Source: an uncultured Clostridia bacterium | GTDB taxonomy: Bacteria; Bacillota; Clostridia; TANB77; CAG-508 | Assembly (NCBI GenBank): GCA_947168035.1 | Contig: CAMVKF010000002.1 | Span: 1-40,872, forward strand | Direction: 5' to 3' | DNA: 40,872 nt | Part shown: positions 11,519-37,247 of the stretch, piece after piece | Layout: each line of letters begins with the position of its first letter | Numbering within the stretch: position 1 is the stretch's first letter | Made by a program: the position numbers and the translations under genes | The notes under the pieces: generated by a model | What the model saw: only the letters and a program-made list of their open reading frames with translations | The model's database searches: none | What the model was told of the DNA's origin: nothing

Positions 11519-11715
11519 GTTACAATCACAGCTTTCAAGTTTATCTAGTCCTGCAACGGTCAAAACTTTTTATTTTATTACTCGGGCCTTCCCTACTTAC
11601 GCTGTAACAATGCTAACGCATTTAACAGCTCTCAGCGGTCCCCCCGAGACCCTCGTTTAAAATAAAAAGTATCGACCTGCACGGACTTTAAACGATTATT
11701 GCTGTAATTTGTAAC
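11519..11715. repeat. Palindromic intergenic element A (MITE-like; cacagc-type arms, GC-rich core)
   Basis: The ends gttacaatcacagc... and ...gctgtaatttgtaac are inverted. About 60 nt of each arm is related (agtcctgcaacggtcaaaactttttatttta against the reverse complement agtccgtgcaggtcgatactttttatttta). It lies between the convergent cdaA and htrA genes. Confidence 0.75.
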
Positions 11716-11719
11716 TTTT

Positions 11720-12964
11720 TTATTGTTGTTCACCTAATTCTATTGAAATTTCTTTTTCTTTTCCGTCTCTAACTATTTTTAATTTCATAGTATCTCCAAT
11801 AGAATGTGTATTTTTTATTTCGTTTAATTCATTCATTGTTGTTATTTTTTTACCATCTGCTTCTATTATTACATCTCCAATTTTAAGACTTGCTTTTTCT
11901 GCTGCTGAATATTCATCTATATATACAATATAAATTCCCTCACTTAAATTATATTTTTTAGCTGTTGCTTCATTTAAATCTCTTCCCTTTATTCCAATAT
12001 AAGGTCTTCTTACTTTATTATAAGTTTTTAATTGATTTATTATATCTGTTGTAGAATTTATTGGAATTGCAAAACCTATGCCTTCAACACCTGTGCTAGA
12101 AACCTTCAAAGTATTAATTCCTATTACTTGACCTTGCGAATTTACCAAAGCTCCTCCACTATTTCCTGAATTGATTGCAGCATCTGTTTGAATACATGTA
12201 TATGATGCAGTTTTTTCACTATCTTCAACTTTTCTATTAATTGCGCTTACAACTCCACATGTAATTGTAGTTCCTAAATCTAATGGATTTCCAACTGCCA
12301 TAGCAAATTCTCCTACTTTTACACTATCAGAATCTGCAAATTCTGCAGGAGTTAAATCTGTTTTGTCAATTTTTAAAACAGCTAAATCGGTTTGTGAATC
12401 TTTTCCTACAATAGTTGCATCATATGTTTTTTCATCTCCATATAATGAAACTTTAATAGATTTAGCTTCTGATATTTCATAGTATTGAGATTCTGTGCTA
12501 GAGTCTACAACATGATTATTTGTTACTATATAACCATCAGCACTTAGTATTATTCCTGAACCAGAAGCAGTTGCTTCAGTTTTAGAATTACCACTATTAA
12601 ACCCAAACATACTAAAATATGAAGATGTTGTAACATCATATGTTATTGTTATTCCAACAATTGATGGAAGAATTTTGCTTGCTGCAAATACTGCTGTGTC
12701 TGAATAATTTGAAAGAGAAACTAAATTAGAGTTAATTATTCCATCATTTACAGTAGCATTATAAGAACTTTGCGTGTTTGTGTCTACTTTTCCTATAATC
12801 TTTTCTTTTATACTAGGTACTCCAAAACATGTCCCTATAACTAGTGTACAACCTAAAACACTACTTATAAATGGGGTTAAAACATTTCTTCCAAAACTTC
12901 CTTTGGATTTTGAGTTATAATCTACAACATTTTTAAAATCATTTTCATTCATAAAAAATTCCAT
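11720..12964 (-). CDS. htrA: HtrA/DegP-family serine protease with a PDZ domain
   Basis: N-terminal TM helix, catalytic TNNHVV, DLAVLKI and GNSGGALV motifs, and a C-terminal PDZ-like region. Confidence 0.9.
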   Translation of the reverse strand: MEFFMNENDFKNVVDYNSKSKGSFGRNVLTPFISSVLGCTLVIGTCFGVPSIKEKIIGKVDTNTQSSYNATVNDGIINSNLVSLSNYSDTAVFAASKILPSIVGITITYDVTTSSYFSMFGFNSGNSKTEATASGSGIILSADGYIVTNNHVVDSSTESQYYEISEAKSIKVSLYGDEKTYDATIVGKDSQTDLAVLKIDKTDLTPAEFADSDSVKVGEFAMAVGNPLDLGTTITCGVVSAINRKVEDSEKTASYTCIQTDAAINSGNSGGALVNSQGQVIGINTLKVSSTGVEGIGFAIPINSTTDIINQLKTYNKVRRPYIGIKGRDLNEATAKKYNLSEGIYIVYIDEYSAAEKASLKIGDVIIEADGKKITTMNELNEIKNTHSIGDTMKLKIVRDGKEKEISIELGEQQ

Positions 12965-13059
12965 TCCTTTCTAAATAACACTTTTTAACATATTACTCCC
13001 AATTTGTGATTATTTTGTGAACAAAATGTATTATTTTTGAAAAATCCGAAAAGAGGGAT

Positions 13060-14121
13060 TTATTCGTCATCGCCTTTTAATTTTTCTGCCCTATCTGCTG
13101 CTGTTAAATTATCTATCATTTCATCTAAATCTCCATTTAAAAAGTTTTCCATTTGATATATACTAAATCCAATTCTATGGTCTGTTATTCTACCTTGTGG
13201 GTAATTATATGTACGTATTTTTTCACTTCTGTCTCCTGAACCAACTTGAGATTTTCTTGTTGATGCAATCTCAGAATCTTGTTTTTGCTTTTATATTTCA
13301 TATGATCTAGATTTTAATAAATTCATTGCATATTCTCTATTTTGAAGCTGAGACCTTTGTGTTTGGCATTCTGCTACCATTCCTGTTGGAATGTGTATAA
13401 GCCTTACAGCAGATGAGGTTTTGTTGATGTGCTGTCCTCCAGCACCAGATGCTCTAAATACTTCCATTTTTATATCTGCTGGGTTTATTTCTATTTCTAC
13501 ATCTTCTACTACTGGAAGTACAGCTACAGTTGCAGTTGAAGTATGAATTCTACCACTGCTTTCTGTATCTGGCACACGTTGTACTCTATGTACCCCACTT
13601 TCAAATTTTAACCTACTATATGCACCTTTTCCTGTTACCATAAATGATATTTCCTTGTAACCACCAAGCTCTGTAGAATTTTCATTTAAAACTTCTATTT
13701 TCCAATGTTTTCTTTCTGCATACATTCCATACATTCTAAATAGAGTTCCTGCAAATAAAGCAGCTTCTTCTCCACCTGCTCCGCCACGAATTTCACATAT
13801 AACGCTTTTATCATCATTTGGGTCTTTAGGTATTAGTAAAAATTTTAATTCTTCTTCTATTTTTTCTAGTTTTTCTTTAGATGAATAATATTCTTCTTCT
13901 GCTAACTCCTTCATTTCTTTGTCTTCTAACATTTCTTTTGCTTCATTCATATTATTTAGGGTTTGCTTATATTCTCTATACTTTTGAACAACATCTTCCA
14001 TAGAACTATGTTCTTTAACTAGTTTTTTCCATTCATTATTATTACTAATTACTTCAGGATCTCCTATTTTTAATGTTAATTCATCATACCTTTTTTCTAC
14101 CAATTCTAATTTTTCAAACAT
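13060..14121 (-). CDS. prfA: Peptide chain release factor 1 with an in-frame TAA at 13291-13293
   Basis: It has an RF1-type PxT tripeptide ([14 protein letters not shown]) and the GGQ motif ([11 protein letters not shown]). The track ORF ends ...SRSYEI*. The same frame then continues for 76 codons ([41 protein letters not shown]...GDDE*), which is the conserved RF1 C-terminus. The start is probably MFEKLE at 14121. Confidence 0.85.
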
Positions 14122-14182
14122 AAAAATTCTCATTCCTTTCTAAACTTTTCACATTATACCATTTTTTCTCTTATAAATCAAT

Positions 14183-14205
14183 AGAGACGGATTTTTTCCG
14201 CCTCT
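14183..14205 (-). terminator. Hairpin between the T4CP gene and prfA (weak terminator candidate)
   Basis: agagacgg-attttttc-cgcctct. The downstream T-run on the minus strand is poor. Confidence 0.35.
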
Positions 14206-35071: not shown

Positions 35072-35100
35072 TTCCTATCTTGTGTAAACAAGATATACTT

Positions 35101-36742
35101 TTATAAACATTTAAAATATGGGTACATTCCCATTTTTCTTGGTTTTAAAATTTTACTTCCATCTGATAAAAAACAAATTGTAGCAAATGTTTGCAAACCT
35201 TGTGTAAAAGCATTTGTATCAAAAATATAATCATTTTGTGTATATACATTTAAGCTCTCAGAAATACTAGAATCTTTATTAACTAAATTTCTGGTTAAAA
35301 AGTTATATCTTGTATGTTTTGCACTTTCTGAAATATTTTTTGATACTTTCTCTTTTTCTTCCTTCCCCAACTGTTTTTGGGCTTCTTCTATTGTAAAAAT
35401 ATCATCTGTTCTAAACCAAATTTTATTAATTAAATTTTGGCAAATGACCTTAGTCGAAGTTTCATCTTTTAATGTGTTTTTTAAAGATGAATAACTTTGT
35501 GTACTTACAATATTTATACATTTTGCTTCTCTACTTAAAGAGAAAAAGTCTGAATCTGTTTTTGTTACATATTCTGCATATTCATCACATATAAATACTG
35601 CTCTTTTAGAATTATTTTTTTGCAAATTCATCATAATTTCTGTTTGAAAATCCAGCTTTAAATATGCAGCAATAATTTTAGATAAATTTTTATATTCTGC
35701 AATATTCATATTCAAAACCACAATTTTTCCTTTATTTAAAACTTCTTCAAAACCTTTAAAAGTAAGGTCTTCTTTCTTAGGGCAAAATGTTTTTAAAATA
35801 TTGTAATCTGAAATAAAATTATTTGTAATTCTTGTAATTTCAGACTTTAAAATTGCAAGTGTTCTTTCATCTAACCTTTCAAACTCTTTTTGAAAAAAGT
35901 CTAATGCTTTGTTTAATTCATAAATTTGCTCATAAGATAGTTTTGAATTGAGAAATAAATCTCGCAATATATTTATTTTTTCTTTATAATAATTTGGAAA
36001 TGTAATTAATTTATGAATTTCTTCAAATGTTACATACCCGTTATTGTATAACCTACAAAGCTTTATTGCTTCTGCTAAAATTTGTTCTGCCTTATCTAGC
36101 CAATAACTTTCGGAATTATTCCCAGAAAATAATTCTAAAATAGTTTTTAATCTATTTGCTAAAACAATTGGCTTTAAATGTGGCTTATCAAGCGGATTAT
36201 AAGTAACTTTAGAATTTAGTTCAATTACTATTAGGTCATCTTGCAAATTATATTTTTCAGCATATTTTTTCACTTGTGAATAATAATTTCCTTTTACATC
36301 TAAAATAAGCATACCCATTTTATTATCTTTATTTTTGCTATTAAATTCCATTAGCTGAGAAGTAAAAGGGTACATTGCAGAACTTGTCTTTCCTGAACCT
36401 ATTGTACCTGTAATTAAAAAGTTTTGGTACAACCCACTTTCTCCAATATATATGTCTTCTTTTGTGTTAATATCATATCCTATTTTTAGTCTAAGTTTAT
36501 TTGTATCTATTGGTACACCTGTATTTTGCTTTTGAATTTTTTTATTGAATTTAATTTTTAAACTTTGAATTTCATTAAATAAAAAATTTGAAATTATAAT
36601 ATTTGATATACAAAATGTATAAATATAAAATTTTTTGAGAAAAATCCATAATTTTCCGTGCTTTTTGGCATATGTCAAAAGGCTTAATTCCGTAAAATAT
36701 AATTACTTCATTTGCTGTATAAACTGGGCATAAAATTTGCAT
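35101..36742 (-). CDS. T4SS coupling-protein-like P-loop ATPase (TraG/TraD/TcpA-like), with a +1 frame break at in-frame CGG (36656-36658)
   Basis: Walker A ITGTIGSGKTSS, ILDVKGNYY, YNPL and Walker B-like VFICDEYAEY. The TTG start in the track (36678) has no RBS. The upstream frame from ATG 36742 (MQILCPVYTANEVIIFYGIKPFDICQKA) ends at gca CGG. Skipping the C joins it to GKLWIFLKKFYIY... and adds a second N-terminal TM helix. That frame stays open up to 36796, where gaaggtga lies 6 nt before an ATA. Confidence 0.7.
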
Positions 36743-36951
36743 TACAATAATAGTAGCAACACTTAAAAAAATACTACAAAAAATAAATCTTTTTATTTTG
36801 TATCACCTTCTTTTTTGTATAAATCTTCTTTTTTAATATTTAATTTTAACCCTTGTTTATTTTGGAAAACATTGAAATCTAAAAAATTATAAACTGTATA
36901 AAATGTGATAAAAAAATTAATAATAAATGTGAAAAAGAAAAAATTAATTAA

Positions 36952-36980
36952 TTTATATATAGCCTACCACCACCTTGCAA
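36952..36980 (-). promoter_or_regulatory. Possible promoter for the T4SS-like cluster (TTGCAA-17-TATAAA)
   Basis: Hexamers read on the minus strand with a 17-nt spacer, about 150 nt upstream of the extended ORF. Confidence 0.3.
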
Positions 36981-37060
36981 AAGGTATAATAACATCTTTT
37001 TTTCATTTTGTCTATACTTTTTTGAAAATTTATGTTAAAATAATTTCATAATTGAATACT

Positions 37061-37247
37061 AGTCAAACTTAATTAATATATATTTTTTCACTTCGTTTGG
37101 TGTCGCAATCTTCCTTATCTCATAATATAAAAATAAATTTTTATATTATGAGATCGCATAAGATGATTGCTCCAGTCGCCCTTCGCTAACGCTTCGGTTG
37201 CTCGCCTTACGCACTCCATTCAAAAATATATATTAATTAAGTCTGAC
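37061..37247. repeat. Palindromic intergenic element E (ttaatatata-layer arms + the core of element C in inverted orientation)
   Basis: The ends agtcaaacttaattaatatatattttt and aaaaatatatattaattaagtctgac are inverted repeats. The reverse complement of the core 37093-37226 matches 33611-33728 of element C almost base for base. Confidence 0.85.

What the first reader, a model, noticed from the sequence alone, without database searches (positions are those of the whole stretch)
11519..37247. Dense family of modular, nested palindromic GC-rich intergenic elements (at least 5 copies in 41 kb)
Five intergenic elements share interchangeable layers: A 11519-11715, B 21478-21686, C 33547-33802, E 37061-37247, and the solo arm D 27229-27290.
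- The outer layer has termini gttacaaTtCACAGC... followed by ...tAGTCCTGC or ...aAGTCCGCGCC. It is present in A, B, C and D.
- The middle layer is (g)tgATTAATATATAtTTTT. It is present in B, C and E, with E using acttaattaatatatattttt as its terminus.
- The inner layer is a GC-rich long-hairpin core. It differs in A and B but is shared by C and E.

Each full copy is an imperfect palindrome of 190-260 nt that could fold into a stem of about 100 bp. All copies sit precisely between genes, often abutting stop codons (21688, 11720, 27284). In a genome this AT-rich, the cores are conspicuous GC islands.

The layered structure suggests MITE-like elements that insert into one another's loops, or a recombining family of structured RNAs. 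I do not recognise the family.
Basis: seen in the sequence. Interest (0 to 1): 0.65.

Follow-up and report, generated by a model that had tools for sequence, protein, structure and literature searches.

The report
Nested miniature transposons in intergenic DNA
The five GC-rich palindromes are real and are best read as small non-coding transposons (MITEs) sitting inside one another in an uncultured, very AT-rich gut/rumen Clostridia genome: a new family of a well-known kind of selfish DNA.

Summary
Four long imperfect palindromes (A, B, C, E) and one half copy (D) share interchangeable shells, far beyond chance.

The outer shell behaves like a transposon:
- It has a 15-bp terminal inverted repeat, GTTACAATTCACAGC.
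- It has two different, separately conserved subterminal arms, which I call X and Y.
- In nine copies from four genomes the 8 bp on either side match as direct repeats (8/8, 7/8, 6/8, 5/8...; permutation p = 0.002).
- A related species has only an 80-nt spacer with no element where its relative carries one.

Evidence for nesting: short ~100-nt outer elements in another Clostridia MAG have one apical TATTAATA. Their long versions carry a ~100-nt insert flanked by TATTAATA on both sides. The inner unit (AT-rich repeat plus GC core) also occurs alone, as E.

Evidence against an RNA gene: both strands fold about equally well, G·U pairs are few, and Rfam, plasmid and phage searches find nothing.

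No transposase partner was found, and ISfinder could not be queried.

Verdict: a new MITE family with concentric nesting. This is a new member of a known kind and of moderate interest.

The parts
11519..11715 (+). Element A. Outer MITE 'O' in X->Y orientation: X arm 11519-11560, Y arm 11674-11715. It encloses an AT-rich inverted repeat (11561-11579 and 11655-11673) and the GC-rich core-2 (11580-11654, GC 0.56).
   Evidence: Identical in L001. Same family, core included, in two copies in L039 (82-90% identity).
21478..21686 (-). Element B. Outer MITE 'O': Y arm 21478-21517, X arm 21644-21686. It encloses the middle repeat M (21518-21536 and 21625-21643) and core-3 (21537-21624).
   Evidence: The flanking 8-mers ATTATAAA and ACTACAAA match at 6/8 positions. 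B lies between the stop codon at 21688 and a terminator-like hairpin at 21462-21438.
33546..33802 (-). Element C. Outer MITE 'O': Y arm 33546-33585, X arm 33760-33802. It encloses M (33586-33604 and 33742-33759) and core-1 (33605-33741).
33612..33659 (+). Conserved GC-rich (0.62) asymmetric segment of core-1: GCGTAAG.CGA.CAA.CGA..GAG.G.GA.TGGAG.
   Evidence: Shared by C, E, two copies in L071 and one in L039. RNAalifold support is weak, -2.7 kcal/mol.
27229..27290 (+). Element D. A solo X arm (27229-27267) plus a remnant of the A-type AT-rich layer (27268-27290), abutting the TatD stop codon. It is a truncated copy at a break in gene order.
   Evidence: X-arm HMM, E = 1.4e-11. Gene order downstream of TatD differs in L070, L071 and L072.
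37057..37252 (-). Element E. A solo inner element: M repeats 37070-37088 and 37222-37239, with core-1 at 37089-37221 reverse-complemented relative to C. It sits at the centre of a further 13-nt inverted repeat. The palindromic 8-mer TTAATTAA lies at both M junctions.
   Evidence: (I1, I12). No outer X or Y arms were detected nearby. Identical in L080 and L081, whose contigs break inside it.
37167..37214 (-). The copy in E of the conserved core-1 segment.

Best explanation
**What it is**
- These are non-autonomous DNA transposons (MITEs) of at least two kinds, nested concentrically.

**The outer element 'O'**
- In its basal form O is about 100 nt long.
- It has a 15-bp terminal inverted repeat, GTTACAATTCACAGC.
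- It has two different subterminal arms:
  - X: ...TTTTAA.TATA..TAGTCCTGC
  - Y: ...TAAAAT.GTT.AAAGTCCGCGC
- It has an AT-rich apex.
- It is presumably moved in trans by an unidentified transposase that makes 8-bp target duplications.

**The inner elements**
- A second small element has inserted at the AT-rich apex. The inserts are:
  - in B and C, the M type: an AT-rich repeat T(G/A)ATTAATATATATTTTT around a GC-rich core;
  - in A, another type;
  - in the related MAG, a third type.
- The M type can also sit alone, as in E.
- Because the apex targets are short AT-rich palindromes, the target duplication merges into the inverted repeat. Each insertion therefore adds one more palindromic shell.

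**How the copies persist**
- Copies survive only in the short intergenic spacers of this compact genome, often in 3' untranslated regions next to stop codons.
- When transcribed they would form very stable hairpins.

**What is shown and what is inferred**
- Shown: terminal repeats, distinct ends, 8-bp duplications for O, dispersal, and the empty-versus-filled apex in a relative.
- Inferred: trans-mobilisation, nesting by insertion in B and C themselves, and any effect on transcripts.
For: **Ends of O**
- The 15-bp terminal repeat and the X and Y arms recur in 13 arms from the window, L034, L038 and L039 (alignment and nhmmer, E = 1e-9 to 1e-15).
- X arms of different copies resemble each other more (64% overall, 60% in the spacer) than the X and Y arms of one copy do (47-67% overall; X versus Y spacers 36% on average).

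**Target duplications of O**
- Flanking 8-mers of nine complete copies match at 42 of 72 positions. The null from mismatched flanks is 25.9; permutation p = 0.002.
- Individual copies: L071b AAAAATTC 8/8, L039a 7/8, B 6/8, L034e 5/8.

**Presence and absence**
- L071 carries a three-layer copy at 14359-14576, in a 458-nt spacer.
- The syntenic spacer in L072 is 80 nt and has no element.

**Nesting**
- The short forms L038b (104 nt) and L034s (99 nt) are X arm, apex, Y arm. L038b has a single TATTAATA at the apex.
- The long forms L034e and L038a have a ~100-nt insert with its own inverted repeat, ATTA(T)CAAGA, flanked by TATTAATA on both sides.
- The inner unit occurs alone in E, and as a short relative in L006 at 17845-17925.

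**Other properties expected of a MITE**
- Both strands fold about equally well, with 0-5 G·U pairs.
- The longest open frame is 58 aa, and no protein in the database matches.
- Short-read contigs from two other samples break inside E, as expected for a multi-copy repeat.
- The features fit the published definition of prokaryotic MITEs (PMC10969869).
Against: - No autonomous element with these terminal repeats was found. The genome and metagenome scans returned only a handful of family members.
- Copies A, C, L038b and L039b show no convincing duplication (2-4 of 8 positions).
- For the M-type inner element, the only clean flanking repeat is the TTAATTAA of E. It is palindromic, so it cannot be told apart from a longer inverted repeat.
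- No precise empty site exists for any of the five window copies.
- MITEs are usually AT-rich. GC-rich cores conserved across species in a 26% GC genome hint at some constraint that simple parasitism does not explain.
- Only about 250 kb of related sequence was available, so the census is small.
Confidence: 0.7

Rival explanations
1. The elements are primarily functional structured RNAs whose modules have been shuffled by recombination. Candidates are small RNAs, 3' UTR stabilisers or processing sites, or bidirectional terminators. On this view mobility is secondary or absent.
For: - Folding is very strong (z = -8 to -13).
- B lies in a 3' untranslated region, ahead of a terminator-like hairpin.
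- A is flanked by an A-tract and a T-tract between convergent genes.
- A 48-nt GC-rich segment of core-1 is conserved in five copies from at least three genomes.
- In the three A-type copies the Y->X strand folds 7-17 kcal/mol better.
Against: - Across the set, neither strand folds consistently better, and G·U pairs are few.
- The conserved 13-nt arm spacers do not pair.
- There are 8-bp target duplications.
- Copies are at non-orthologous sites and absent from a syntenic relative.
- C and E are in opposite orientations.
- No Rfam family matches, even at permissive thresholds; the only hits are generic hairpin (microRNA precursor) noise.
- RNAalifold on the conserved core segment gives -2.7 kcal/mol with little covariation.
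Confidence: 0.1
2. The elements are REP/BIME-like or IS200/IS605-derived palindromic elements (PATEs). They would be moved as single-stranded hairpins by a tyrosine HUH transposase (RAYT or TnpA), with the GTTAC termini reflecting a TTAC-like target.
For: - The architecture is mosaic and composite, with long hairpins.
- A one- to two-base bulge between the X and Y GC boxes is conserved.
- No classical transposase is seen in about 250 kb of related DNA (gene tables).
Against: - Single-strand HUH transposition makes no target duplication and needs no terminal inverted repeats. Here 15-bp terminal repeats and 8-bp duplications are present.
- A single arm does not fold into a REP-like hairpin on its own.
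- No Y1 transposase or RAYT domain appears in the Pfam columns of the fetched loci.
Confidence: 0.08
3. The palindromes grew in place, by hairpin-templated repair or local inverted duplication. They were then spread by homologous recombination or gene conversion between copies, not by transposition.
For: - The centre of L038b is a perfect small palindrome made from the Y side and its own complement, as template switching would produce.
- The apical AT-rich hairpins of core-1 differ completely between copies.
- D is a half copy at a break in gene order.
Against: - This does not explain the flanking 8-bp direct repeats.
- It does not explain the same X and Y ends at unrelated loci in several genomes.
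- Recombination alone cannot place copies in new intergenic sites.
Confidence: 0.05

Closest known systems
Pneumococcal BOX, RUP and SPRITE repeats (Croucher et al. 2011, PMC3049150; review PMC10969869)
   Same: - They are small interspersed repeats in a Firmicute and are mostly intergenic.
- They are predicted to fold into stem-loops when transcribed.
- BOX is modular or composite.
- The families cluster and insert into one another.
   Different: - BOX modules are arranged linearly (boxA, boxB repeated, boxC), not as concentric palindromic shells.
[quoted passage not shown]
- From my own knowledge, RUP is linked to IS630-Spn1, which duplicates TA. Here the duplication is 8 bp.
- No sequence relationship was tested or is expected.
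Correia elements of Neisseria
   Same: - They are 100-200-bp elements bounded by inverted repeats, with many copies next to genes.
- Their transcripts form hairpins that RNase III cuts.
   Different: - They have 26-bp inverted repeats.
- From my own knowledge, they duplicate TA.
- They show no layered nesting.
- Their hosts are proteobacteria.
REP/BIME mosaic elements with RAYT transposases (PMC2817692, listed)
   Same: - They are GC-rich extragenic palindromes in composite arrangements.
- They are often found after stop codons.
   Different: - REP units are 20-40-nt self-folding hairpins with a GTAG head.
- They are moved without target duplication.
- Here single arms do not self-fold, and 8-bp duplications are present.
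ERIC/IRU 127-bp imperfect palindromes of enterobacteria (PMC2759123, listed; the detail on longer variants is from my own knowledge)
   Same: - They are long imperfect palindromes in transcribed intergenic regions.
- Longer variants carry extra sequence inserted at fixed internal sites.
   Different: - The host and sequence are different.
- No multi-shell nesting has been described.
- The mechanism of spread is unknown.

Membership tests
Prokaryotic MITE (definition in PMC10969869) | Length under about 500 bp and no transposase gene | tested here: met
   - Copies are 99-257 nt long.
- The longest stop-to-stop frame is 58 aa.
- No match in the protein database.
Prokaryotic MITE (definition in PMC10969869) | Terminal inverted repeats | tested here: met
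   - The outer layer has a 15-bp repeat, GTTACAATTCACAGC, at both ends in A, B, C, L034e, L039a, L039b and L071b.
- The inner M type has an 18-19-bp repeat.
Prokaryotic MITE (definition in PMC10969869) | Flanking direct repeats (target-site duplication) | tested here: met
   - Outer layer: 8-bp flanks match at 42 of 72 positions against 25.9 expected, p = 0.002.
- One copy matches 8/8 and one 7/8.
- For the inner elements this is inconclusive. TATTAATA and TTAATTAA are palindromic.
Prokaryotic MITE (definition in PMC10969869) | Multiple dispersed copies at unrelated loci, with presence or absence between relatives | tested here: met
   - Copies occur in the window, L034, L038, L039 and L071 in different gene contexts.
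- L071 is filled where the syntenic L072 has no element.
- No precise empty site exists for the window copies.
Prokaryotic MITE (definition in PMC10969869) | A cognate autonomous IS with matching terminal repeats | not testable with these tools
   - ISfinder was not available.
- No transposase appears in the fetched loci.
IS256-derived MITE | Ends collinear with IS256-type inverted repeats (8-bp duplication) | tested here: not met
   - IS256 ends were read from CP141429 (L079).
- They share only the hexamer AAGTCC with the arms.
- The hexamer is in the opposite order and strand relative to the tip.
- Only the duplication length agrees.
REP/BIME (RAYT-mobilised) | A self-folding 20-40-nt REP unit, no target duplication, and an associated RAYT gene | tested here: not met
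   - The arms pair with each other, not with themselves.
- Duplications are present.
- No Y1 transposase domain appears in the gene tables.
IS200/IS605-derived PATE | No terminal inverted repeats, no duplication, and subterminal hairpins at each end | tested here: not met
   Terminal repeats and 8-bp duplications are present.
Any Rfam RNA family | A covariance-model match at or near the gathering score | tested here: not met
   - At gathering thresholds only the tRNA matched.
- At E up to 10, the hits on A and C were far below gathering scores, mostly microRNA-precursor hairpins.
- At E up to 1, B gave a single microRNA-precursor hit, also far below its gathering score.
Pneumococcal BOX element | boxA, boxB and boxC sequence modules | not tested
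   No BOX models or sequences were at hand. The resemblance is architectural only.

The most novel reading that the evidence does not exclude
**Structure-directed targeting**
- The nesting may not be just survival in safe havens.
- It may reflect a transposase that prefers the AT-rich apex of an extruded DNA hairpin or cruciform.
- The family would then build ever longer 'onion' palindromes.

**Constraint on the core**
- The GC-rich core-1 segment is 48 nt long and conserved across species in a 26% GC genome.
- It may be kept by selection, as a transposase-binding site or as a functional RNA module carried inside MITE shells.
Probability: 0.15. Interest if true: 0.55.

Novelty: new member of a known kind. 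Interest (0 to 1): 0.35.

Why it matters
- It adds uncharacterised MITE families from an uncultured, very AT-rich Clostridia lineage of gut and rumen metagenomes. The 2024 review of prokaryotic MITEs (PMC10969869) contains neither 'Clostridi' nor 'Firmicutes' in its text, although it does discuss pneumococcal and staphylococcal elements.
- It gives a clean example of concentric nesting.
- In practice these elements break short-read assemblies.
- D marks one break in gene order.
- The copies place 60-95-bp hairpins in untranslated regions of housekeeping genes, so they probably shape genome rearrangement and transcript stability in this lineage.
- If apex targeting is real, it would be a simple system for studying structure-directed transposition.

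Tried and rejected
**Known RNA families**
- Rfam at gathering and at permissive thresholds on A, B and C gave only generic hairpin noise.

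**Known plasmid or phage sequence**
- blastn in 'distant' mode found no match for C and A against plasmids, or for C against phages.

**Viral contigs**
- Scans with the X-arm pattern and with the core-1 motif gave only chance matches.

**The one genome scan**
- It found the family only in one Clostridia MAG, JAAVZQ01, among 7 hits.

**The one metagenome scan**
- Only L039 was real, among 31 hits. L055 turned out to be UvrD coding sequence.
- The arm patterns were probably too strict for diverged copies.

**IS256 as the parent element**
- I recalled that its inverted repeat contains AAAGTCCGTA, as do the Y arm of A and the apex of B.
- I fetched IS256 to check. The motif order and strand relative to the tip do not correspond, so I rejected it.

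**RNA structure in the conserved core-1 segment**
- RNAalifold gave weak support.

**Orientation of core-1 relative to X and Y in L071b versus C**
- The X or Y identity of the L071b arms could not be resolved, so I dropped this argument.

**Census through spurious small ORFs**
- Exact look-up of 7 peptides encoded by the elements found nothing.
- A chimeric 622-aa query made of element reading frames also found nothing. The candidate cap may have been filled by low-complexity proteins.

**Decayed outer arms around E**
- None were detected.

**Terminator function**
- Only A has T-tracts on both sides. C and L071b do not.

Full report
**Setting**

The window is 40,872 bases at 26.5% GC. It carries housekeeping genes of a Gram-positive anaerobe:
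- cdaA, htrA, prfA, dnaJ and smc;
- acpS, tatD, a DnaD-like gene and a phosphoglucomutase gene;
- two type IV secretion coupling-protein genes.

The best protein relatives are unnamed metagenome proteins. One hit is labelled 'Clostridiales bacterium'. The contigs carrying these relatives come from ENA and Logan metagenome assemblies and from an NCBI metagenome assembly, GCA_001684375. From the study labels in the record names I take them to be rumen and gut samples; no tool output names the sample type.

The window is itself a whole contig in the protein collection. Near-identical strains occur in ERZ14209544 and SRR8387718.

**The observation**

| Comparison | Result |
|---|---|
| C against reverse-complemented E | 87.5% over 176 nt, E = 6e-55 |
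| B and C, left arm | 88% over 52 nt, E about 1e-13 |
| B and C, right arm | 84% over 61 nt, E about 1e-13 |
| D against the left arm of A | 86% over 51 nt, E = 4e-11 |

- The middle repeat TGATTAATATATAWTTTT is found six times with at most one mismatch. It forms only the inverted pairs of B, C and E. Shuffles give 0.42.
- The four full copies fold at -57 to -105 kcal/mol, with z-scores of -8 to -13. They form 63-96 base pairs.
- Cores are GC 0.44-0.62, the middle repeats 0-0.06.
- All copies lie between genes and touch stop codons, as stated.
- A, and E in two other samples, are identical in independent assemblies, so they are not assembly artefacts.

**Anatomy of the outer layer**

I aligned 13 arms from the window and from copies found elsewhere. 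The outer layer is not a simple palindrome. From the tip inwards it has:
- a 15-bp terminal inverted repeat, GTTACAATTCACAGC;
- an AT-rich spacer of about 13 nt;
- a GC box.

Spacer and box come in two forms:
- X: TTTTAA.TATA..T then AGTCCTGC
- Y: TAAAAT.GTT.AA then AGTCCGCGC

Every complete copy whose arms could be assigned has one X arm and one Y arm.

X arms from different copies and genomes are more alike (64% overall, 60% in the spacer) than the X and Y arms of a single copy (47-67% overall; X versus Y spacers 36% on average). The spacers therefore do not pair in the hairpin, yet they are conserved. This is what distinct left and right transposon ends look like. It is not what an RNA helix under selection looks like.

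Orientations (X->Y):
- A is on the plus strand.
- B and C are on the minus strand.
- D is a lone X arm.

**Relatives elsewhere**

| Source | What was found |
|---|---|
| Genome scan | Family only in the Clostridia MAG JAAVZQ01. L034 has a 195-nt copy and a 99-nt copy. L038 has a 182-nt copy and a 104-nt copy. |
| Metagenome scan | One 2-kb contig, L039, with two A-type copies (82-90% identical to A, core-2 included) and a core-1 fragment at the contig end |
| L071, a relative (TatD 78% identical) | A full three-layer copy at 14359-14576, another core-1 copy at about 3830-3885, and two other palindromic families |
| L006, another relative | A 75-nt short version of the inner element |
| Other relatives (L002-L005, L070, L072-L074, L082-L085) | No outer arms |

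The family is patchy within the clade.

**Evidence for transposition**

For nine copies with both termini I compared the 8 bp on each side.

| Copy | Flanking 8-mers | Match |
|---|---|---|
| L071b | AAAAATTC / AAAAATTC | 8/8 |
| L039a | TGCTTAAT / TGCTTAAC | 7/8 |
| B | ATTATAAA / ACTACAAA | 6/8 |
| L034e | not listed | 5/8 |
| The other five | not listed | 2-4/8 |

- The total is 42 of 72 positions. Pairing the left flank of one copy with the right flank of another gives 25.9. The permutation p is 0.002.
- L071 and L072 are syntenic at 76-84% identity. The spacer between uvrD and the M23 peptidase gene is 458 nt with the element in L071, and 80 nt without it in L072.
- The flanks are too diverged to define an exact empty site.

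**Evidence for nesting**

- In the JAAVZQ01 MAG the short copies are simply X arm, AT-rich apex, Y arm. L038b reads ...GGTAGT TATTAATA GAACTACC...
- The long copies read ...GGGCAGC TATTAATA [about 100 nt with its own inverted repeat ATTA(T)CAAGA] TATTAATA GAACTACCC....
- One copy of the 8-mer in the short form and two around the insert in the long form is what an 8-bp target duplication predicts.
- Because TATTAATA is its own reverse complement, the duplication becomes part of the palindrome. This explains the 'layers'.
- In the window, the alignment of C with reverse-complemented E shows that similarity starts and stops at the M repeats. No X or Y arm is detectable around E.
- So M plus core-1 exists both alone (E) and inside an outer element (C, and L071b).
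- E is bounded by TTAATTAA on both sides and sits in the middle of a further 13-nt inverted repeat.
- For B and C the junction 8-mers, GATTAATA and TATTAATC, are each one mismatch from TATTAATA. This is not proof.

**RNA gene or DNA element?**

- Plus and minus strands fold about equally well, with only 0-5 G·U pairs per element.
- The exception is the A-type copies, where the Y->X strand is 7-17 kcal/mol better in all three.
- The 48-nt GC-rich segment of core-1 is conserved in five copies from at least three genomes. It gives only -2.7 kcal/mol and little covariation in RNAalifold.
- Rfam gives nothing beyond microRNA-precursor hairpin noise.
- I conclude the palindromes are DNA-level inverted repeats.
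- A secondary role for the transcript is not excluded. B sits between a stop codon and a terminator-like hairpin, so it is probably transcribed.

**What moves them**

- No transposase was found in about 250 kb of clade DNA (gene tables).
- From my own knowledge, an 8-bp duplication is typical of several IS families: IS256, ISL3, IS1595, IS6 and IS66.
- I checked IS256 directly. Its ends share only AAGTCC with the arms, and in a non-collinear arrangement.
- The parent element remains unknown.

**Consequences seen here**

- D is a half copy fused to the end of tatD. Gene order differs from three relatives at exactly that point.
- Short-read contigs from two other samples end inside E.
- The five copies make up 2.3% of the window.

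**Comparison with known elements, and verdict**

- The features meet the published definition of prokaryotic MITEs (PMC10969869), except for the missing parent IS and the GC-rich cores.
- Clustering and mutual insertion of small repeats are already described for pneumococcal BOX, RUP and SPRITE (PMC3049150).
- This is therefore a new family of a known kind, with unusually tidy concentric nesting.
- Confidence in the nested-MITE reading is 0.7. Interest is 0.35.

Noticed in passing
window 1729-1805 and 5919-5963: The last 45 nt of tRNA-Arg(TCT) are repeated exactly 4.1 kb downstream. The repeats bracket three minus-strand genes: a DUF4143/AAA_14 ATPase and two genes with no Pfam match. No integrase is present. 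This looks like the remnant of an island integrated at the tRNA.
   Followed up: partly
window 10930-10970 (cdaA), 13291-13293 (prfA), about 25250 (smc): - cdaA carries a +1 frameshift that is shared with the independent contig L001.
- smc has a single frameshift.
- prfA (RF1) has an in-frame TAA where L001 has GAA.
- Relatives also show many split genes: comM, dprA, priA, uvrD, an aminotransferase gene and a Zip transporter gene.
- The lineage may be accumulating pseudogenes.
   Followed up: partly
window 7592-7701: A 110-nt hairpin lies between a response-regulator gene and a pilin-like gene. It has 5 G·U pairs on the plus strand and folds better on that strand. It is single-copy and identical in L001. 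It could be a strand-specific RNA structure rather than a MITE.
   Followed up: partly
window 31325-31428 and 33137-33228: Two further intergenic palindromes, 104 nt and 92 nt, both AT-rich. The first has termini GTTGC...GTAAC, reminiscent of the outer repeat. No other copy was found in the sequence at hand.
   Followed up: partly
window 33546-37252: C and E carry the same inner element in inverted orientation, 3.4 kb apart. Between them are three conjugation-like genes: a gene for a membrane protein with no Pfam match, a T4SS pilin-like gene and a coupling-protein gene. The arrangement could allow inversion or act like a composite transposon. No flanking duplication of the whole block was seen.
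   Followed up: no
L082 6635-6781, compared with L085 and L006: L082 has a 147-nt insertion between ftsY and htrA that includes an unrelated 129-nt palindrome. L085 is near-identical in the flanks and lacks it; L006 lacks it too. TTA, and possibly about 20 nt, is duplicated at the junction. This is a clean presence/absence case for another palindromic element in the same clade.
   Followed up: partly
L071 5201-5411, 11530-11742, 14289-14343: Two more families of long palindromes, 211 nt and 213 nt. A solo arm of the second lies next to the three-layer element. Several palindromic repeat families coexist and cluster in this relative.
   Followed up: partly
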